This document shows positions 1,659-11,306 of a DNA stretch of 51,775 nt, one piece after another. The position numbers and the translations under genes are program-made. Under the pieces are notes generated by a model. It was given only the letters and a program-made list of their open reading frames with translations. It searched no databases and was not told the origin of the DNA. Location of the stretch: IMG/VR virus record IMGVR_UViG_2687453454_000002; one strand, 5' to 3'. Position 1 is the stretch's first letter. Each line of letters begins with the position of its first letter. This DNA comes from a virus (taxonomy: Duplodnaviria > Heunggongvirae > Uroviricota > Caudoviricetes).

Positions 1659-2738
1659 TTAAGAATCAGCCTGACTCGGGATCAGTTTTTGCCAGATAAC
1701 TGAAACGTATTTTGCCTGGTAACGGGCGTCATCAAGTGCATTATGGCGCTCACCTTCGAATGGAATAGCCGTTCTGGCATCGAAGTCTATGGCTTTCCCC
1801 AGCTCAACGATTGTGCGTACATCGCGATCGTTGTAGTAACGCCACGGGCAGGGGATCCCCTGCCGTTCGTATGAACGGCGCAAAATCGTGTTGTCGAAGT
1901 TGGCTCCATTTCCCCAAACCTGAACAAAAAATTCACCGGAGTTTTCGTCGATAAATTCTCGCAATTGTAACAGTGCATCATCTAACGGGATTTCATCGGT
2001 CATAATGGCAGATTGCGCTTCGCGTGATTGCTTAAGCCACCATTTAATGGTGTCCCGATCAATGACTCCGCCAGCAGTTTCCAGATCGATAGTCTTACTA
2101 AATTCCGGTCCCATATCTCCGGTTTGCGGATCGAAAAATATTGCACCTATTGAGATGATCGGGGCATCAGGATTTTTTCCCATGGTTTCAAGGTCGATCA
2201 TTAGATGGTCACACGTCCTGCTGGTGGATGTGATTTCGTGATGACCGTTCACCTTAATTGGGTGATCTGCCGTCTCGCCAGTTTCATTATCGCTATTGTG
2301 ATGCTGATTGCCGCCAGTGTTCTCCTTGTGTGGATGTTCAGCGCCTTCCATTTCCTCCGGATCATCTTCCTGAACTTCAACCTGATACTCTTCATCGAAT
2401 GTTTCTTGGTATGTTGCGTCGCCCATCACCGCGCCACAATCAGGGCAGTTGCCGCCGCCGGTCTGACCGCAGGCGGTGCAGACTTTTTCCACTTCCTGTT
2501 GCGCTACTGGTTCAGGCTGTTTCGTTTCTGGCTCGTTTTGTAACGCATTTGGACTGTTTTGTTCCGCTTTTTGGTAGTTCCGTTCCGATTCATGCTGGTT
2601 CTGGTTCACAGAATCGCGGGTCTGGAGCCCCTTAACCCATTTCGGATCATTCGGGTCACTAATCCCTTCAACAAATTCACCACGTGATGCAGCAAGCAAC
2701 TTATCGGCGTCAGGCTGGCTGATATTGGCTGCCTGCAT
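1659..2738 (-). CDS. DnaQ-like (DEDDh) 3'-5' exonuclease with N-terminal Zn-ribbon and acidic linker
   Basis: C-terminal half carries Exo I (LMIDLETMG), Exo II ([11 protein letters not shown]) and Exo III (HNALDDARY) motifs; N-terminal CTACG..CPDCG ribbon followed by an acidic low-complexity stretch. Confidence 0.7.
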
Positions 2739-2987
2739 AATTTTGTTTACTTCGTCAGCGGTAACTTTTATCGGCTCTGGTTGTTCTGAATCTTCAGCGG
2801 TATCTACATTTTGCGGTAAGCCCGTGTATGTGCCATTTTTTCGGGCAAAATATTCTTCTTTTGTGATTTCAGTGGCGCCAGCAGCCAGTGCCTTATCCAG
2901 ACCAGAGAGTTTGTTTGCGCGACCGTATTTTTCTCCGTCCTTATCTGCGAAGAGGAAATAGAACGGCCCCTCACGCTCTACAGATGG

Positions 2988-4130
2988 TTAAGCTTCCGGC
3001 GCGGTTTCATTTTTTGGGATATCAGATACCTCAGTTTCCACTGCATCAGTTTGTGTTTCTGATGACTGGAGAACATCAACAGTGCCCAGGTCTGTTTCTT
3101 CATTCTCAAACACGCCCTTTGTCGTCAGGTATTCGCAGATATATTTGTTCAGTGCTACGGGATCTTTGTGAATGTCGATCGGACGCTCACGGACAAGGCC
3201 AAAAATAGTTTGGCGGTCGTAGCGAAGGGCATCAGGCTGTTTGCGCATTGATGCCGAGATACGCTTCCAGTCTTCGCGGTCGTTGTCGATAACTTCTTTT
3301 TTTGCCCAGCGATGGATGCTGCCGTCAATGTTTCCGGCATCCACATCACTAGGCCAGAGAGCGTAGGCCAGTTCGTCATCCAGTGTTTTCCATGTCTGCT
3401 TGTATTCGCGATGAATGGCAGCAATGACCGGGCTGATTTTTCCTGTTGAATTTTCAGTGTACTGTTGATTGGCTCTGGCGCGGGCGAGATCAACAACAGA
3501 CGTGTATTTTCCGGTTTCCTTGCGTTCACCTTCGCGACGTTTTTTCCAGATGCGCATCTCTGCCTGAATTTCGGGCCATTTAGCACCAGGAATACATTTA
3601 TGCTTAACCCACCCAATGGCGTGCAACTTAAGCTCCGGATACATGGCGTTAACTTCTGGCATTTTCATCAACGCTTCAACGATATGTCCGTCGAATGTTG
3701 CCATGTCTTCCTGCAACAATTCCTGTGCGCTAATAACCATATCAACGGTGATGTTTTCACATGTGTCGAACTTAACCATGACAGCGTTCTGTACTTCAGG
3801 GGCCAGCTTGTCAAAAGTGACGTTCATCGGATCGGATTCAGTCTCAACCGGGACAAAAGAAGCAGACTCCTCATCCCAGCGGTTTTCCTGCATATATTCA
3901 GCATCCCATGAATCGAGGGCAGGGCGGGGTATGCCAGGTTTATCCTCGCAGACAATAAATTTATAAGCGCAGTCCTGAGCAGCCGGATAATGTTCCAGGA
4001 ATTGCCAGTGAAATTTTGCTCGAGCACGGCGTTCGTCGCCAGCTTCAATGGCTGTGGCTACAGCCACAGCGCCTTCTTCCCTTGTTGCCAGTTCGTCAGG
4101 AATAGCGGCGCAAATAAAGACTTTACTCAT
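2988..4130 (-). CDS. ydfE: YdfE-like early-region protein of unknown function (full length)
   Basis: ORF-track entry 2988..4166 begins with TTG; the ATG at 4130 has a GAGG Shine-Dalgarno about 10 nt upstream. Position matches ydfE downstream of ydfD in Qin (recalled gene order). Confidence 0.6.
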   Translation of the reverse strand: MSKVFICAAIPDELATREEGAVAVATAIEAGDERRARAKFHWQFLEHYPAAQDCAYKFIVCEDKPGIPRPALDSWDAEYMQENRWDEESASFVPVETESDPMNVTFDKLAPEVQNAVMVKFDTCENITVDMVISAQELLQEDMATFDGHIVEALMKMPEVNAMYPELKLHAIGWVKHKCIPGAKWPEIQAEMRIWKKRREGERKETGKYTSVVDLARARANQQYTENSTGKISPVIAAIHREYKQTWKTLDDELAYALWPSDVDAGNIDGSIHRWAKKEVIDNDREDWKRISASMRKQPDALRYDRQTIFGLVRERPIDIHKDPVALNKYICEYLTTKGVFENEETDLGTVDVLQSSETQTDAVETEVSDIPKNETAPEA

Positions 4131-4222
4131 TTGTTTTAACCTCATGACAGATTTAAGGATGAACAAATCCCTGCCATTGCTGGCATATAAGAATGAAACC
4201 GGATATTTATTACGGAACTGTT

Positions 4223-5866: not shown

Positions 5867-6274
5867 TTATCTTTTATTTGTCCGCTGACGGGCTTTTAGT
5901 AATTCTTCAAAGAGTTTATTGAAGTTTTTTACTCGAGCTCGCATTTCGGCGAGCTGGGTATCCTGTTCTGATTCTGGCAGTGCATTAAACAGCTCAAGGA
6001 GCTCTAGTTCTTTGGGGGATAAGGCAACTGGCTTCTCAACAGGTGGTGTTGGTTGCTTGTCTTCATCGCCAAATAGAATCCATGTTGGTGAGCATTGCAA
6101 TACTTTGCTGAGGGCAAAAAGGTTCTTCCCTGTAGGTTCACTATCACCCCGTTCCCATTGTGATACAGACACATGGGAGATTTTCAGGGCTTTAGCAAGA
6201 GACCTTTGGGTGTGTTTGAGGTTTTTCCGACGATACCTGATGCGTTCGCCGATAGTTAAATTTTTTGTTTCCAT
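5867..6274 (-). CDS. dicA: DicA repressor (HTH_XRE, 135 aa)
   Basis: 135-aa ORF METKNLTIGERIRYRRKNLKHTQRSLAKALKISHVSVSQWERG... matches K-12 DicA as recalled. Confidence 0.9.
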   Translation of the reverse strand: METKNLTIGERIRYRRKNLKHTQRSLAKALKISHVSVSQWERGDSEPTGKNLFALSKVLQCSPTWILFGDEDKQPTPPVEKPVALSPKELELLELFNALPESEQDTQLAEMRARVKNFNKLFEELLKARQRTNKR

Positions 6275-6323
6275 AGTTAGCTAATGCTAAATCGTATTGA
6301 CTATGTTTTTGTTAACATCTATC

Positions 6324-6343
6324 TTGTTAGTTATGACTAACAA
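6324..6343. promoter_or_regulatory. Putative DicA/DicC operator in the divergent dicA-dicC intergenic region
   Basis: 20-bp near-perfect inverted repeat TTGTTAGTTA/TGACTAACAA (9 of 10 positions paired), 15 bp upstream of the dicC start. Confidence 0.55.
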
Positions 6344-6357
6344 TAAAGGTGTTTTAA

Positions 6358-6588
6358 ATGCTTAAAACTGACGCTCTTTTGTATTTCGGTTCAAAAACAA
6401 AACTTGCACAAGCAGCAGGTATTCGTTTGGCTTCGCTTTATAGCTGGAAAGGGGATTTAGTTCCCGAAGGTCGCGCGATGCGTCTACAGGAGGCATCTGG
6501 CGGGGAGCTTCAGTATGATCCCAAAGTTTATGATGAATATCGTAAGACGAAGCGGGCGGGGCGGTTGAACAATGAAAATCACTCCTGA
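6358..6588 (+). CDS. dicC: DicC (Cro-like regulator, 76 aa)
   Basis: 76-aa ORF MLKTDALLYFGSKTKLAQAAGIRLASLYSWKGDL... matches K-12 DicC as recalled; divergent from dicA. Confidence 0.9.
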   Translation: MLKTDALLYFGSKTKLAQAAGIRLASLYSWKGDLVPEGRAMRLQEASGGELQYDPKVYDEYRKTKRAGRLNNENHS

Positions 6589-7093
6589 ACAGGCTCGTGA
6601 GGCTCTGGATGCCTGGATATGTCGACCAGGAATGACACAGGAGCAGGCGACGATATTAATCACTGAAGCATTCTGGGCTTTGAAAGAGCGCCCGAACATC
6701 GATGTTCAGCGTGTCACATATGAAGGTGGCGCGATTGATCAGCGAGCGCTTGGCGTTAATCGAGTGAAGATATTTGAACGCTGGAAGGCTATCGACACCA
6801 GGGATAAGCGTGAAAAGTTCACGGCGCTAGTGCCTGCAATTATGGAGGCTATCCGGATTAATGATTTCAGGTTGTATCGTGAAATTACTGACGGAAAAAG
6901 CATCACGTGCATGATCGCCGGGTTAAACAAAGAATATGGCGATGTGGTGGAGTCCGGACTGCTTTTTGCTGATCCTGCCGTAGTGGATCGTGAAACTGAC
7001 GAACTTATAGAAAAAGCAATTGCTTTCAAACTTGCGTATCGACAGCAATACCAACAAAAAGCTGGATGGAATTATGAGCCTTCTTTTTGCTGA
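6572..7093 (+). CDS. Hypothetical early-region protein (173 aa)
   Basis: ORF starting at the dicC stop overlap; no motif I can name. The corresponding position in K-12 Qin holds degraded ydfX/ydfW fragments (recalled). Confidence 0.5.
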   Translation: MKITPEQAREALDAWICRPGMTQEQATILITEAFWALKERPNIDVQRVTYEGGAIDQRALGVNRVKIFERWKAIDTRDKREKFTALVPAIMEAIRINDFRLYREITDGKSITCMIAGLNKEYGDVVESGLLFADPAVVDRETDELIEKAIAFKLAYRQQYQQKAGWNYEPSFC

Positions 7094-8039
7094 ACGTCCA
7101 CTGGTTATAAACACGCAGCTGGCAATGAAAATTGGCTTAAACGAAGCCATTGTTTTGCAACAACTGCACTACTGGTTGAGAGATACCAACTCCGGCATGG
7201 AATGTGATGGTGTTCGCTGGATTTATAACACAACGGAACAATGGCTGGAACAGTTCCCATTCTGGTCAGAGTCAACGTTAAAGCGCGCGTTTGCAAGTCT
7301 GAAAACGCTGGGGCTTTTGCGTTGTGAAAAGCTCAATAAATCAAAGCGCGATATGACCAATTTCTACACGATCAACTATGGGAGCGAGCTTTTAGATGGT
7401 GGCAAATTGAGCGAATCCATCGGTTCAAAATGCGCCGCTCCATCAGGTCAAAATGACACGATGGAAGAGGTCAAAATGAAACGCTCCATTGGTTCAAAAC
7501 GACCCAATGTCATCGGGTCAAAATGGCCTGATGATCTTACAGAGAATACAACAGAGATTACTACAGAGAATAAAAACACTTTTCGTCCGGAAGCTTCGCA
7601 ACCGGACCCGCAGACGACTGAACAGGATTTTTTAACCCGGAACTCCGACGCGGTTGTGTTTAGTGCGAAAAAACGCCAGTGGGGTAGCAGGGAGGATTTG
7701 GCGTGTGCGCAGTGGATCTGGGGGCGGATCGTGGGTCTCTACGAACAGGCAGCCAGTGATGATGGCGAGATCATGCGACCAAAAGAGCCTAACTGGACTG
7801 CCTGGGCCAATGACGTGCGCACAATGCGGATGCTGGATGGCAGAAGCCACAGACAAATTTGCGAAATGTTTGGTCGGGTTCAGCGAGATCCATTCTGGGT
7901 AAAAAACATCATGAGCCCGTCAAAGCTCCGCGAAAAATGGGACGAACTGGTCATCCGCCTGGGACGTTCACCTGTACAGCGTTGTGTTAATCATATTTCT
8001 GAACCGGATACAGAAATTCCGCCTGGTTTCAGAGGATAA
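7074..8039 (+). CDS. Putative phage replication-initiation / replisome-organiser protein (HTH N-terminal domain)
   Basis: N-terminus LVINTQLAMKIGLNEAIVLQQLHYWL... resembles phage replication-initiator HTH domains; an iteron array lies inside the gene as in lambda O. The ATG at 7074 is chosen over the overlapping ORF-track start at 7020. Confidence 0.5.
   Translation: MSLLFAERPLVINTQLAMKIGLNEAIVLQQLHYWLRDTNSGMECDGVRWIYNTTEQWLEQFPFWSESTLKRAFASLKTLGLLRCEKLNKSKRDMTNFYTINYGSELLDGGKLSESIGSKCAAPSGQNDTMEEVKMKRSIGSKRPNVIGSKWPDDLTENTTEITTENKNTFRPEASQPDPQTTEQDFLTRNSDAVVFSAKKRQWGSREDLACAQWIWGRIVGLYEQAASDDGEIMRPKEPNWTAWANDVRTMRMLDGRSHRQICEMFGRVQRDPFWVKNIMSPSKLREKWDELVIRLGRSPVQRCVNHISEPDTEIPPGFRG
7416..7525. 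repeat. Iteron array (candidate phage replication origin) inside the initiator-like gene
   Basis: Five copies of CATCGGTTCAAAATG-like 15-18-bp repeats at exact 23-bp spacing (7416, 7439, 7462 degenerate, 7485, 7508), followed by an A/T-rich ACAGAGA(A/T)TA-repeat stretch at 7540..7590. Confidence 0.65.
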
Positions 8040-8079
8040 GTGTTGATTTCAGGTCATGAGGTAATTTTAAGGGGGACTT

Positions 8080-8502
8080 GTGGCAAAAGTTTTTACACAA
8101 GAAGAGCGGGAAAAAATTAAATGGCAGGTGGTGGAACTCGTGCGCCAGAGCGGCCGTGAGACGTTACGGCAACTGGAAGCTAAAACAGGTGCGACTAGAT
8201 ATCTGATGAGCGTTCTTGCCAGAGAGCTGGTAGCCAGTGGCGATGTATACAACTCCGGCTACGGGTTATTCCCCTCTGAACAGGCGCGTAAGGACTGGCA
8301 AAACGCCCGCAAAAAACTCTCGAGGGCAAAGGTGAAGAAACCTGCTGTGGTTGATCCGGACCTTATCTGGTCATCACCTGACGGAGAAATACGTCGCTAC
8401 GACAGTCGCCTAAACATAATCTGTCGCGAGTGCCGGAAGAGCGAAGTTATGCAGCGCATACTGGCTTTCTATCAGGGTAATTTTCAGGACGTGGCGCAGT
8501 GA
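8080..8502 (+). CDS. Hypothetical protein (140 aa) with C-terminal CxxC pair
   Basis: ORF with start overlap to the following methyltransferase-like ORF; function unknown. Confidence 0.5.
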   Translation: MAKVFTQEEREKIKWQVVELVRQSGRETLRQLEAKTGATRYLMSVLARELVASGDVYNSGYGLFPSEQARKDWQNARKKLSRAKVKKPAVVDPDLIWSSPDGEIRRYDSRLNIICRECRKSEVMQRILAFYQGNFQDVAQ

Positions 8503-8855
8503 GTGCACCGGCAACCATTCTTGATATGTGCTGTGGCAGCCGCATGTTCTGGTTCGATAAGTCTGACGAACGGGCGATATTCAGCGATATCAGAAAAGAA
8601 GGATACACATTACGCAATGGGAGACGCTTGATTATCAGCCCTGACATTATCGCAGATTTTCGTGCATTATCATTTGCAGACGCATCTTTTTCGATGGTTG
8701 TATTAGACCCTCCGCATCTTGAGAGTGTTGGTGATAACGCCTGGATGGGAAAGAAATATGGACGGCTGAATAAAGATGCCTGGCGTGATGATTCGCGACA
8801 GAGATTTAAAGAAGCCTTTCGGGTGTTGAGGCCGCACGGCGTTCTGATTTTTTAA
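8499..8855 (+). pseudogene. DNA methyltransferase catalytic-domain fragment (motif I and DPPH motif IV), probably truncated
   Basis: GTG-start 118-aa ORF with LDMCCGS (SAM-binding motif I), VVLDPPH (motif IV) and RVLRPHGVLIF, but it ends with no target-recognition domain and no in-frame continuation downstream. Confidence 0.5.
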
Positions 8856-9374
8856 TGGAATGAAACGCAAATACCGGTAAGCCAGATTCTGGCACTGACA
8901 GACAGAAAACCTGTTATCTGTCAACGAACAGGGAAAAAACGATAAAACCCACTGGATTATTTTTATGAAAGAGGCATCCAGTGAGTAGATTCGTAAGGCT
9001 ACAGATACGTATATCTGAATAATTAAATTCAGTTCTGTAAATAAAATTTAATCCTTAACCGGATGGATTTCTGCACCCTCAGAACATCAGGAGGCCGCCC
9101 GAAAGGGCGGTAGTGAAATGCGAAAGTTCAAAATTATTATTGAAACGGGAATAGCTGGTGGAGATTTTGAGGATGTATTCGAAGTGGACGATGACGCAAC
9201 ACCTGAGGAAATTCATGACGGAGCATAAGAAATTTTCTTTAACTACTGCAATTACTCATACCACGAAATAAAAGACGATGAGGAAGAACAAAGTGGCTGA
9301 TTTTTGTTCAGCTAAATATAACATCAGTTTTGAGTAAGCGTGCAGCAAGAACCGTATTGACGGGGATGTGTTAT

Positions 9375-10910
9375 TCAGTCGGCAGTGCTACGCGCCAGGG
9401 GGAGCAGTTCGCCGACCCGGTTTATCGGCCAGTCGGCTATGACGTCAAGGACATAGCGGAGGTAGCTTTCTGGCTCCACTCCGTTCAGTTTGCACGTCCC
9501 GATCAGGCTGTACAGCAGCGCTCCCCGCTCTCCTCCATGATCCGAACCGAAGAACAGGTAGTTTTTGCGGCCCAGACTGACCATCCGCAACGCATTTTCA
9601 GCGATGTTATTGTCCGCCTCAGCCCAGCCATCATCTGCATAGTACGTCAGCGCCGGCCACTGGTTCAGGGCGTATGCGAACGCTTTCGCCAGTTCTGAGT
9701 GTCGCGACAGGGTTTTCATCTTTTCACGCAGCCAGCTTTCCAGGGATTTCAGCAGCGGTTTCGTTTTCAACTGACGTTCGGCAAGGCGCTGCTCCGCCGT
9801 CATTCCCCTTATCTCTGCCTCGATGGCGTACAGTTCGCCGATCCGTTTCAGCGCTTCCTCCGTCAGGGCTGACGGGGTGCGAACGTGCACATCGTGGATT
9901 TTACGGCGGGCGTGAGCCCAACAGGCGGCTTCCGTTATCCGGCCATCCCGGTACAGCTCGTTGAACCCGGCGTATGCATCCGCCTGCAGTACACCACTGA
10001 ACCCCGCAAGATGGGTCTGCGGATGGATGCCTTTTCTGTCCGGGCTGTAAGCGAACCACACCGCCGGCGCCAGCGTTGACCCGGCGTTACGGTCGTCACG
10101 AACGTAGGTCCATAACCGCCCGGTCTTCGTTTTCTTATTGCCTGGCAACAGCACCGGGACAGGCGTGTCATCAGCATGGAGCTTACCGTCAGTCAGCACA
10201 TAGTCCTGAAGCGCTTCTTCCAGCGGTGACAGTAGCCGGCAGCATGCATCCACCCAGCCCGACAGCAGTGAACGACTCAGCTCCACGCCCTGGCGGCCGT
10301 ACATTTCAGACTGGCGGTACAGCGGGGTGTGCTCTGCATACTTTGAGATCAGCACGCGGGCCAGCAGCCCCGGTCCTGCGATACCCCGCTCGATGGGCCG
10401 TGAAGGCGCGGGGGCCTGCACGATGGCATCGCACTGAGTACAGGCATGCTTTTCACGTACAGTCCGGATAACCCGGAAGGCGCTGCGCATCAGCTCCAGC
10501 TGTTCGGCGGCATCCTCACCCAGATAGCTCAGCGAGCCTCCACATTCCGGGCAGCATGACGCTGCCGGCAGCAGCCGTTTTTCATCGCGGGGGAGTGATT
10601 CGGGGAACGGTTTGCGGGTGCGGGTTTGACGCAGCGGGCGCTGCACGGCCGGGTCGTCAACCCGACCGGTAAGGGTATCACTTTCTTTCTGAAGTGCCTT
10701 CAGGTCAGCTTCCATCTGTGCGATACGACGGGAGACTTTTTCCGAGCGGCTGCCGAAGTTCATCCGGCGCAGCTTATCCAGCTGTGCCTGCAGATGGTCT
10801 ATTTCGCGTTCACGCTCGTTCAGCTTTTCCTGCAGGGCACGGTTCAGCGCCTCCTGTTCGGCAAGGAGACGTTTCAGTGCATTGATATCGTCAGGAAGTG
10901 AGCTGCTCAT
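9375..10910 (-). CDS. tnpC: IS66-family transposase TnpC (511 aa)
   Basis: 511-aa ORF with the leucine-zipper-like N-terminus and overall architecture typical of IS66 TnpC. Confidence 0.85.
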
Positions 10911-10958
10911 ACCGGGTATATTACCAGGCTCATTCAGCGTCGACCAGGATAAAGAGGC

Positions 10959-11306
10959 TTACAACATAGTCAGGGACGTAAGCAGTCTTTTAGGCTGCCG
11001 CCAGTCGATACCTTCCAGCAGCATCGCCAGCTGTGCCGGTGTGAGGAACACTTTGCCATCCCGGGCTGACGGCCAGGCGAAGCGGCCGCGCTCCAGCCGT
11101 TTGGTCAGCAGACACAGTCCATCGCCGGTAGACCAGAGGAGCTTTACCTGACTGCCATTACGCCCACGGAAGATAAAAACGTGACCTGACATCGGATCGT
11201 CTTTCAGCGTCGTCTGCACCTTTGCCGCCAGGCCGTTGAAGCCGTTTCTCATATCGGTGATGCCAGCGACCAGCCAGATCTTTGTCCCTGATGGTAATGG
11301 GATCAA
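10959..11306 (-). CDS. tnpB: IS66-family TnpB (115 aa)
   Basis: 115-aa ORF directly upstream of tnpC, overlapping tnpA by 4 bp; IS66 Orf2 size. Confidence 0.8.
   Translation of the reverse strand: MIPLPSGTKIWLVAGITDMRNGFNGLAAKVQTTLKDDPMSGHVFIFRGRNGSQVKLLWSTGDGLCLLTKRLERGRFAWPSARDGKVFLTPAQLAMLLEGIDWRQPKRLLTSLTML

What the first reader, a model, noticed from the sequence alone, without database searches (positions are those of the whole stretch)
7416..7600. Iteron array with exact 23-bp periodicity inside the replication-initiator-like gene
Five CATCGGTTCAAAATG-type repeats spaced exactly 23 bp apart, followed by an A/T-rich stretch with ACAGAGA(A/T)TA repeats, lie within the coding sequence, as ori-lambda lies within O. 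No P/DnaC-type helicase-loader gene follows; the next genes are a 140-aa unknown and a methyltransferase fragment, so the replication module looks incomplete or relies on a host loader.
Basis: partly seen in the sequence, partly recalled or inferred. Interest (0 to 1): 0.45.

Follow-up and report, generated by a model that had tools for sequence, protein, structure and literature searches.

The report
Replication origin inside a prophage initiator gene
The repeats are real and are almost certainly the replication origin of an E. coli lambda-like prophage, written inside its own initiator gene; its second half is a 12-base repeat that turns up, nearly letter for letter, in phage and plasmid origins across most bacterial phyla and that I could not find described.

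Summary
Observation confirmed, with corrections. There are six 23-nt dyad-symmetric units (7395-7533), the first degenerate. Spacing is 23,23,23,23,24, not exactly 23. Three 12-nt units ACAGAGAnTAC (7539-7574) follow. This is the strongest periodic signal in the 51.7-kb window.

The repeats are read in three reading frames and lie in a predicted disordered linker of a 321-aa initiator. So they are DNA signals, not peptide repeats.

The initiator has an unannotated winged-helix N-domain, a C-domain homologous to lambda O, and a tail matching the last 21 residues of E. coli DnaT.

In 116 related viral loci, iteron type tracks the N-domain one-to-one while C-domains assort freely. S. aureus and Bacillus phages with a 51%-identical N-domain carry the same GGTCAAAATGACC core.

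The 12-mer occurs next to 21-24-nt iterons in initiator genes and non-coding DNA from many phyla. Its codon pattern shows nucleotide-level selection.

No helicase-loader gene follows. Such O-only modules are known in viable lambdoid phages and are unexplained. The DnaT-like tail, also present in phage LLS, is a testable lead.

The origin reading rests on comparison only; nothing was tested experimentally.

The parts
7074..8039 (+). Initiator gene (321 aa, O-like); the origin lies inside it
   Evidence: ORF. PHROG 391 at 1e-91. No Pfam family. 99.9% identical to 'DNA replication protein O' of phage PhiR42_1. 4280 homologues, mostly named 'hypothetical protein'.
7101..7397 (+). Coding region of the N-terminal winged-helix domain (aa 10-108), inferred iteron binder
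   Evidence: AlphaFold model shows H-H-beta-beta-H-H-beta-beta, pLDDT 60-82. Weak Foldseek hits to RepA_N plasmid initiator N-domains 4pql, 5kbj and 4pt7. 10,289 clusters of relatives, with no Pfam model. Tracks iteron type one-to-one.
7395..7417 (.). Iteron 0, degenerate (GATGGTGGCAAATTGAGCGAATC)
   Evidence: In register with the array. A good iteron (GAAGAGGTCAAAGTGAAC) in relatives. The lag-23 signal starts at 7385.
7418..7440 (.). Iteron 1 (CATCGGTTCAAAATGCGCCGCTC)
7441..7463 (.). Iteron 2 (CATCAGGTCAAAATGACACGATG), best dyad symmetry, most conserved
   Evidence: (inverted repeat I1).
7464..7486 (.). Iteron 3 (GAAGAGGTCAAAATGAAACGCTC)
7487..7509 (.). Iteron 4 (CATTGGTTCAAAACGACCCAATG)
   Evidence: (I20).
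7511..7533 (.). Iteron 5 (CATCGGGTCAAAATGGCCTGATG), 24 nt after iteron 4
   Evidence: The extra T at 7510 is conserved in all relatives.
7539..7574 (+). Three 12-nt units ACAGAGAnTACn; proposed unwinding and helicase-entry element
   Evidence: TRF period 12. Least stable 40 bp of the gene. Conserved at nucleotide level across phyla and in non-coding DNA.
7398..7598 (+). Coding region of the disordered inter-domain linker (aa 109-175) that carries the origin
   Evidence: pLDDT about 26 for residues 109-175.
7611..7964 (+). Coding region of the C-terminal helical domain, homologous to the lambda O C-terminal domain
   Evidence: BLASTP against lambda O: 34% identity over 148 aa, E 1e-26. Model helices 206-297.
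7974..8036 (+). C-terminal tail VQRCVNHISEPDTEIPPGFRG, matching the last 21 residues of E. coli DnaT
   Evidence: phmmer against PDB chains 2ru8, 6aep and 9zbt_D. NCBIfam DnaT model, positions 160-179 only. phmmer with MG1655 DnaT.
8080..8502 (+). Downstream neighbour: DUF977 / LygF / Ren-like protein, not a helicase loader
   Evidence: Pfam PF06163 at 5e-29. PHROG 142.

Best explanation
This is the vegetative replication origin of a lambdoid (Qin/Rac-like, DicA-immunity) E. coli prophage. It is embedded in the part of the initiator gene that encodes a disordered linker.

Inferred mechanism:
1. Dimers of the initiator's N-terminal winged-helix domain bind the six 23-nt dyad-symmetric iterons (core GGTCA-AAA-TGACC). 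The spacing of about 2.2 helical turns should give a wrapped nucleoprotein complex like the lambda O-some.
2. The strain opens the adjacent low-stability 12-mer array (CAGAGAnTAC x3). The conserved 12-mer is probably also read in a sequence-specific way, most likely as single-stranded DNA.
3. The C-terminal lambda-O-like domain and the DnaT-like tail bring in the host DnaB helicase through host proteins, because the phage encodes no loader.

Shown here: the repeats, their frame independence, co-variation with the N-domain, C-domain homology to lambda O, nucleotide-level selection on the 12-mer, and absence of a loader gene.

Inferred: binding, opening and the route of helicase loading.
For: The repeats are real and far beyond chance. 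The core is read in three frames and lies in a linker with pLDDT about 26.

In 125 of 125 viral loci holding the 12-mer, the best upstream lag is 23.

In the 116 of those loci with a complete ORF, N-domain clusters at 70% identity map one-to-one onto iteron types. C-domain clusters assort independently.

S. aureus phage 96 and Bacillus phage BhaS-171 were found by N-domain protein similarity alone (51% identity). They carry GGACAAAATGGCC and GGTCAAAATGACC iterons at a 22-nt period.

The C-domain is homologous to lambda O. The lambda origin has the same layout, with iteron spacing 20, 24, 23.

The 12-mer region is the least stable 40 bp of the gene.

For the 12-mer, 126 units not forced by the search pattern show this codon pattern:
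- ACA 90 against other Thr codons 1, but TCA/GCA/CCA 25.
- GAG 83 against GAA 4.
- The next Thr codon in the same unit is free: ACT 30, ACA 29, ACG 6, ACC 6.

Iteron-plus-12-mer units also occur in non-coding DNA, including plasmid pBSG3 upstream of its rep gene.

Deposited complete phage genomes carry the same O-only module.
Against: No experiment was done: no binding, opening or plasmid-origin data for this family were found.

The structure model is of low confidence overall (mean pLDDT 55). Fold matches to plasmid initiators are weak (E 0.02-0.2).

The A/T-rich region is short (about 40 bp) and only moderately A/T-rich (30% G+C).

The wide surveys of the 12-mer started from the motif itself. 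This ascertainment bias is only partly offset by the extra-unit analysis and by ten homologues chosen by protein similarity.

The DnaT-tail link to loader-less replication is a correlation among related sequences. Five tail-bearing loci also have a DnaC-like gene, and 13 loci without the tail also lack a loader.
Confidence: 0.85

Rival explanations
1. The periodicity is a by-product of a repeated peptide in the protein. Selection would be at the protein level, with no DNA function.
For: SIGSK / SIGSK / VIGSK recur in the protein. TENTTEITTEN is a repeated peptide.
Against: A 23-nt period puts the same DNA core into three frames (SIGSKC, PSGQND, EEVKMK).

Relatives keep the DNA core while the residues change.

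The 12-mer shows the reverse of protein-level selection: the third position of ACA and GAG is fixed while the first position varies.

Non-coding instances exist. The region is predicted to be disordered.
Confidence: 0.02
2. The iterons are binding sites for the initiator (or another regulator) but serve copy control, autoregulation or exclusion rather than initiation. The true origin would lie elsewhere.
For: Iterons in plasmids also mediate handcuffing and autorepression (general knowledge). Cloned lambda ori fragments cause a replication-inhibition phenotype (abstract of PMC3349717, listed).
Against: The iterons always abut a low-stability 12-mer array at a fixed distance. The same unit stands next to rep genes on a small plasmid. 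No other comparable repeat array exists in the window. The layout matches the proven lambda origin.
Confidence: 0.06
3. The conserved 12-mer stretch is mainly a recombination joint. It would be a shared 'linker' sequence at which phages swap N- and C-terminal initiator modules, with no role in opening.
For: N- and C-domain clusters assort independently and the break lies at the 12-mers. Stx phages share 40 nt at 97.5% identity there, with unrelated flanks. Klebsiella phage similarity to the window ends at query 550-553, which is window 7569-7572.
Against: Recombination cannot maintain the motif between phages of Staphylococcus, Bacillus, cyanobacteria, Bacteroidota and E. coli. The motif also occurs in non-coding DNA beside iterons. 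The two roles are not exclusive.
Confidence: 0.05
4. The 12-mer acts at the RNA or translation level. For example, it could form a stable purine-rich RNA:DNA hybrid that primes or opens the origin, rather than being a protein-recognised DNA element.
For: The coding strand is 64% purine in 7534-7580. Lambda ori needs transcriptional activation (general knowledge). The constraint is on nucleotides, not residues.
Against: No Rfam family matches. Non-coding instances have no evident common transcript. Nothing was tested directly. This is really a variant mechanism for the same origin.
Confidence: 0.05

Closest known systems
ori-lambda inside gene O of phage lambda (O-some origin)
   Same: The origin sits inside the initiator gene, between the parts coding the DNA-binding N-domain and the C-domain. 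Both have several dyad-symmetric iterons about 20-24 bp apart, followed by a purine-rich, low-stability stretch. The C-domains are homologous. Neither origin has DnaA boxes (for this one).
   Different: The N-domain is not the lambda O N-domain family; TIGR01610 and PF04492 do not match. There are six iterons of 23 nt in strict phase rather than four of 18-19 nt. The low-stability part is a conserved 12-mer tandem, not an A-run. There is no P gene. There is an extra DnaT-like tail.
O-only replication modules of lambdoid phages (phage LLS; Zheng, Casjens, Davidson, Amundsen, Smith, Genome Res 2025, PMC12315714)
   Same: A single O-homologue gene with no helicase or loader. The paper states that this type is 'not yet understood'. 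LLS gp44 ends in DTKIPEGFRG, the same tail type.
   Different: LLS has a different N-domain. It has no CAGAGA or CAGATA motif in its gene, and a Ser/Asp/Ala/Lys-rich repeat in the linker instead. The paper does not mention iterons or DnaT.
Iteron origins of theta plasmids (RK2 oriV/TrfA, F oriS/RepE, pSC101) with 13-mer unwinding elements
   Same: Both have about 22-bp phased iterons bound by winged-helix Rep proteins, next to a repeated 12-13-mer unwinding element. From my own knowledge, TrfA and RepE are reported to bind one strand of that element.
   Different: Here the origin is inside the rep gene. No DnaA boxes are present. The 12-mer sequence is shared across phyla rather than being replicon-specific.
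RepA_N plasmid initiators of Firmicutes (pSK41, pTZ2162 RepA; PDB 4pql, 4pt7, 5kbj)
   Same: The best, though weak, fold matches of the N-domain. From my own knowledge, their origin repeats also lie within the rep coding region between a DNA-binding N-domain and a host-specific C-domain.
   Different: Foldseek E-values are only 0.02-0.2 on a low-confidence model. No sequence-family match was found.
E. coli DnaT (primosomal protein I)
   Same: The last 21 residues match (SEPDxxIPPGFRG). This explains the RAST name 'Primosomal protein I' given to relatives.
   Different: The window protein has neither the DnaT N-domain nor the DnaT DNA-binding domain PF17948. It is not a DnaT. Other members of the superfamily do carry PF17948 as their C-domain.

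Membership tests
Lambda O / ori-lambda type replication module | Origin iterons with dyad symmetry inside the initiator gene, followed by an A/T-rich region | tested here: met
Lambda O / ori-lambda type replication module | N-terminal domain of the Phage_rep_O family (PF04492 / TIGR01610) | tested here: not met
   No Pfam or NCBIfam match for the window protein. Lambda O matches TIGR01610 at 5e-39 in the same run.
Lambda O / ori-lambda type replication module | C-terminal domain homologous to the P-binding domain of lambda O | tested here: met
   BLASTP: 34% identity over 148 aa, E 1e-26.
Lambda O / ori-lambda type replication module | Adjacent P-type (or DnaC/DnaB-type) helicase loader gene | tested here: not met
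   The next genes are DUF977/LygF and a methyltransferase. The same holds in PhiR42_1 and mEp460_ev081.
Lambda O / ori-lambda type replication module | Initiator binds the iterons and the fragment supports replication | not testable with these tools
   Comparative support only: one-to-one match of N-domain cluster and iteron type, and the same core in Staphylococcus and Bacillus phages with a homologous N-domain.
O-only lambdoid replication modules (PMC12315714) | A lambda O homologue as the only replication gene of the early-right operon | tested here: met
Iteron-type theta origins | Three or more direct repeats phased at about two helical turns | tested here: met
   Six units with spacing 23,23,23,23,24.
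Iteron-type theta origins | Adjacent unwinding element made of repeated 12-13-mers | tested here: inconclusive
   Three 12-mers at the stability minimum of the gene. Opening was not shown.
Iteron-type theta origins | DnaA boxes in or next to the origin | tested here: not met
   No TTWTNCACA match with up to one mismatch between 7332 and 7663. The window total equals the chance expectation.
RepA_N / DnaD-like winged-helix initiators | N-terminal winged-helix fold like RepA_N | tested here: inconclusive
   Foldseek top hits 4pql, 5kbj and 4pt7 at E 0.02-0.2, TM about 0.5 on the target. Model pLDDT for the domain is 60-82.
DnaT (primosomal protein I) | DnaT DNA-binding three-helix domain (PF17948) and DnaT N-domain | tested here: not met
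   Only residues 301-321 match DnaT 159-179. No PF17948 match even at E up to 10.

The most novel reading that the evidence does not exclude
The tandem 12-mer nCAGAGAnTACn would be a previously undescribed, pan-bacterial origin element. It always stands directly after 21-24-nt iterons. It belongs to a very large initiator superfamily with no Pfam model: about 10,000 clusters at 50% identity, with a shared winged-helix N-domain and exchangeable C-terminal helicase-recruiting domains (lambda-O-like, Phg_2220_C, DnaA_N, DnaB_2, DnaT). The element would be read in a sequence-specific way during opening, as single-stranded DNA, by the conserved N-domain or by a universal host protein.

Separately, in Enterobacterales the C-terminal PxGFRG tail copied from DnaT would let loader-less (O-only) lambdoid phages hijack the host's DnaT-dependent helicase-loading route.
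Probability: 0.35. Interest if true: 0.85.

Novelty: new variant of a known kind. Interest (0 to 1): 0.68.

Why it matters
As an origin inside a lambdoid initiator gene the finding is expected biology. Three things that came out of checking it matter more.

First, the initiator family is huge and has no Pfam model, and most source records name it 'hypothetical protein', including most of the E. coli genome records listed. Thousands of prophage origins could be annotated from sequence alone using the signature of N-domain, 21-24-nt iterons and CAGAGAnTAC 12-mers.

Second, a 10-of-12-nt motif kept at the nucleotide level from Staphylococcus and Bacillus phages to E. coli, cyanobacteria and candidate-phyla bacteria points to a shared, sequence-specific step in origin opening. 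No searchable paper describes it.

Third, how O-only lambdoid phages load a helicase is an explicitly open question (PMC12315714). The DnaT-like tail is shared by this prophage and by phage LLS, which was isolated and grown on E. coli K-12. That makes the question directly testable with tail deletions and dnaT/priA/priB host mutants.

Tried and rejected
- Pfam and NCBIfam on the initiator gave no family apart from the DnaT tail.
- Rfam on 6900-8200 at E up to 1 gave nothing.
- A DnaA-box scan found none in the origin, and the window total was at chance.
- The promoter and terminator scan of 6200-8600 showed nothing notable in the origin.
- Foldseek against the PDB gave no hit at E of 0.001 or better, and no hit to DnaT or any C-domain fold. 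I did not pursue it because the model is poor.
- Literature searches for the motif strings (ACAGAGAATAC, TENTTE, TEITTE, TACTACAGAGA and others) returned only unrelated papers. This covers open-access text only.
- The DnaT papers do not say what DnaT residues 160-179 contact.
- The search for related loci with an N-domain alignment returned only loci 98-100% identical to the window, which was useless as an unbiased sample. I replaced it with ten phage homologues picked from a tblastn list.
- I first thought the IS66 element had truncated the methyltransferase gene. The gene instead ends at an in-frame TAA, about 500 bp before the IS.
- I considered the 12-mer as DnaA-trio, IHF, DnaA-box or primase sites by eye. 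None fits. No tool test was possible.
- Tandem Repeats Finder on 2300-2800 found nothing for the lag-21 signal.

Full report
WHAT IS THERE

Window 7074-8039 (+) encodes a 321-aa protein in the early-right operon of a lambdoid prophage. The gene order is:
- a DicA-like repressor, 5867-6274 (-);
- a Cro/DicC-like gene, 6358-6588;
- a CII/YdaT-like gene, 6572-7093;
- this gene;
- a DUF977/LygF gene, 8080-8502;
- a methyltransferase ORF, 8499-8855.

The 3.6-kb region is 100% identical to several complete E. coli chromosomes and is present at 80% coverage or more in 253 genomes. The 1.5-kb stretch 7020-8520 is 99.9% identical to phage PhiR42_1, 97% to HannyBb and 97% to mEp460_ev081.

THE REPEATS

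The array consists of 23-nt units starting at 7395 (degenerate), 7418, 7441, 7464 and 7487. A single T follows at 7510, and the last unit starts at 7511. Start-to-start spacing is therefore 23,23,23,23,24, not exactly 23. The extra T is conserved in every relative.

Each unit is a partial palindrome around GGTCA-AAA-TGACC, flanked by CATC/GATG. Units 2 and 5 are the most symmetric and the most conserved.

After GATC (7533-7536) come three 12-nt units, ACAGAGAATACA, ACAGAGATTACT and ACAGAGAATAAA (7539-7574).

The lag-23 self-identity of 0.59 is the strongest periodic signal at any lag from 8 to 60 in the whole 51.7-kb window (z 7.6). It exceeds all 2000 codon shuffles of the gene, whose maximum was 0.50.

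DNA LEVEL, NOT PROTEIN LEVEL

Because 23 is not a multiple of 3, the same core is translated as SIGSKC, PSGQND, EEVKMK, SIGSKR and VIGSKW.

The AlphaFold model has a winged-helix-like N-domain (aa 10-108, pLDDT 60-82) and a helical C-domain (aa 180-297). Residues 109-175 lie between them with pLDDT about 26. These residues are encoded by 7398-7598, which is exactly the repeat region. The origin therefore occupies a part of the gene with little protein constraint, as in lambda O.

THE PROTEIN

No Pfam or NCBIfam family covers it. PHROG 391 'replication initiation O-like' matches at 1e-91.

The C-domain is homologous to the C-terminal half of lambda O, at 34% identity over 148 aa and E 1e-26. 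The N-domain is not the lambda O N-domain.

Foldseek gives only weak hits, led by RepA_N plasmid initiator N-domains (4pql, 5kbj, 4pt7; E 0.02-0.2).

The N-domain alone finds 10,289 clusters (50% identity) at E of 1e-3 or better, among 1.84 billion representatives. Most of the listed homologues that carry a name are called 'hypothetical protein'.

CO-VARIATION

A scan of IMG/VR for the first two 12-mers returned at least 120 contigs. In all 125 loci with enough flank, the best lag in the 140 nt upstream is 23.

In the 116 of these loci with a complete ORF, N-domain clusters at 70% identity correspond one-to-one to iteron types. The types are GGTCAAAATG, GGGCAA/GGACAAnTTGyCC, GGGAAACCC..TTTTCGCGG and AGTGCAAAATGA, plus singletons. 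C-domain clusters assort independently across them: lambda-O-like, Phg_2220_C and an Stx-phage type.

The break between exchangeable modules lies at the 12-mers.

Homologues found by N-domain protein similarity alone include S. aureus phage 96 ORF015 and Bacillus phage BhaS-171, both 51% identical. Their iterons are GGACAAAATGGCC and GGTCAAAATGACC at a 22-nt period. That is the window's core, in hosts of another phylum, while the encoded peptide differs.

This is the strongest available evidence that the N-domain recognises the iteron.

THE 12-MER

A blastn search with the 47-nt element hit 100 phage records. In every listed row with annotation, the hit lies in a replication-initiator-type gene or an uncharacterised one. 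Hosts include Acinetobacter, Staphylococcus, Bacillus, Geobacillus, Erwinia, Pseudomonas, Burkholderia and Vibrio.

They come from Proteobacteria, Firmicutes, Chloroflexi, Cyanobacteria, Bacteroidota, Nitrospirae, Fibrobacteres and Gracilibacteria. The best upstream lag in these loci is 23 in 60, 22 in 30, 21 in 8 and 24 in 5, out of 117 scored. Four hits were set aside as unrelated Thr/Glu-rich or other coding repeats.

Among 126 units not forced by the search pattern:
- the first Thr codon is ACA 90 times, against 1 for all other Thr codons, yet it changes to TCA, GCA or CCA 25 times;
- Glu is GAG 83 times against GAA 4;
- the third codon is A-N-T with a free middle base;
- the second Thr codon of the same unit is free (ACT 30, ACA 29, ACG 6, ACC 6).

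That internal contrast shows selection on nucleotides: the motif is nCAGAGAnTACn.

Iterons plus 12-mers also occur in non-coding DNA. Examples are loci from Orenia, Planococcus, Bacillus and a Hyphomicrobiales genome, and plasmid pBSG3 upstream of its rep gene.

Ten homologues chosen only by protein similarity show, in eight or nine cases, 21-23-nt iterons followed by two to four units of nCAGA(G/T)AnTAn.

In the window, this stretch is the least stable 40 bp of the gene (dG -45.6 against -56.5, sd 3.6) and lies in the top 1.4% of the whole window.

I found no description of the motif. No Rfam family matches, and there are no DnaA boxes. What reads the motif is unknown. A conserved surface of the shared N-domain acting on single-stranded DNA is my preferred guess. 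It is made by analogy with plasmid Rep proteins and DnaA, from my own knowledge.

HELICASE LOADING

No DnaC-, P- or DnaB-like gene follows the initiator. Phage genomes deposited as complete have the same arrangement.

Zheng et al. [quoted passage not shown]

The last 21 residues of the window protein match DnaT 159-179.

Among the viral loci:
- with a GFRG-type tail: 59 lack any loader or helicase gene nearby and 5 have a DnaC-like gene;
- without the tail: 13 lack one and 9 have one.

These loci are phylogenetically non-independent.

Among the 86 diverse initiators, such tails appear only in Enterobacterales loci. From my own knowledge, this is the group that has DnaT.

LLS gp44 has a different N-domain and no CAGAGA or CAGATA motif in its gene, yet it ends in DTKIPEGFRG.

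Other members of the superfamily carry DnaA_N, DnaB_2 or the DnaT DNA-binding domain as their C-terminal module. The C-terminus therefore looks like an exchangeable helicase-recruiting adaptor.

That the tail mimics DnaT to reach host PriA/PriB or DnaB-DnaC is inference. The papers I read do not say what the DnaT tail contacts.

VERDICT

The origin interpretation is well supported by comparison and untested by experiment.

The element works like ori-lambda. It is not a member of the lambda O/P module, because two defining features were tested and not met: the N-domain family and the loader gene.

The conserved 12-mer and the DnaT-like tail are the parts worth following up.

Noticed in passing
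window 7974-8036 (aa 301-321); also L345 8214-9068 (phage LLS gp44): The initiator ends in SEPDTEIPPGFRG, matching the last residues of E. coli DnaT. The same PxGFRG tail ends O-only initiators that have other C- and N-domains, including phage LLS, which was isolated and grown on E. coli K-12.
   Followed up: partly
window 7539-7574; loci L129-L132, L133-L252, L254, L337-L344: The 12-mer nCAGAGAnTACn is conserved at nucleotide level beside iterons in phage, prophage and plasmid DNA from many bacterial phyla, including non-coding contexts. What reads it is unknown.
   Followed up: partly
proteins P0016-P0021 (290 aa) against window 7074-8039: Natural variants lack exactly 31 aa (93 nt = 23x3+24). 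This is an in-frame deletion between iteron 1 and iteron 5 that leaves a shortened array. The 24-nt spacing makes the four-unit deletion a multiple of three.
   Followed up: no
window 8499-8940: The methyltransferase ORF stops at an in-frame TAA (8853-8855), and the same frame stays open for a further 27 codons (WNETQIPVSQ...). PhiR42_1 annotates the same 118-aa ORF.
   Followed up: partly
window 9375-11306: IS66-family element on the minus strand: transposase 9375-10910 (PF03050 at 5e-107) and TnpB 10959-11306 (PF05717). It is inserted about 500 bp downstream of the replication module.
   Followed up: partly
window 2484-2630 and 1659-4166 (-): A lag-21/42 periodicity (0.59 identical) ties as the second strongest in the window, though Tandem Repeats Finder reports nothing there. 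The RecE-like (exonuclease VIII) gene appears as two ORFs (1659-2738 and 2988-4166), whereas PhiR42_1 annotates one 2472-nt gene.
   Followed up: no
window 7074-8039; E. coli RefSeq records: Most of the E. coli genome records listed name this initiator 'hypothetical protein', and RAST-style records call relatives 'Primosomal protein I'. Some collection entries (P0001, 448 aa) fuse it with the upstream YdaT/CII-like gene, which overlaps its start by 20 nt.
   Followed up: no
L254 (plasmid pBSG3, NC_014104.1) 740-850: An 8.4-kb Bacillus plasmid has three CCTACAGGGAAA iterons about 22-23 nt apart, followed by three ACAGAGATTAC units. They lie in non-coding DNA about 540 bp upstream of its annotated rep gene.
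   Followed up: partly
alignment A2 (86 initiators from many phyla): C-terminal domains attached to the shared N-domain include DnaA_N (4), DnaB_2 (3), the DnaT DNA-binding domain (3), Phg_2220_C (16) and DUF6017 (10). This suggests a modular helicase-recruitment adaptor.
   Followed up: partly
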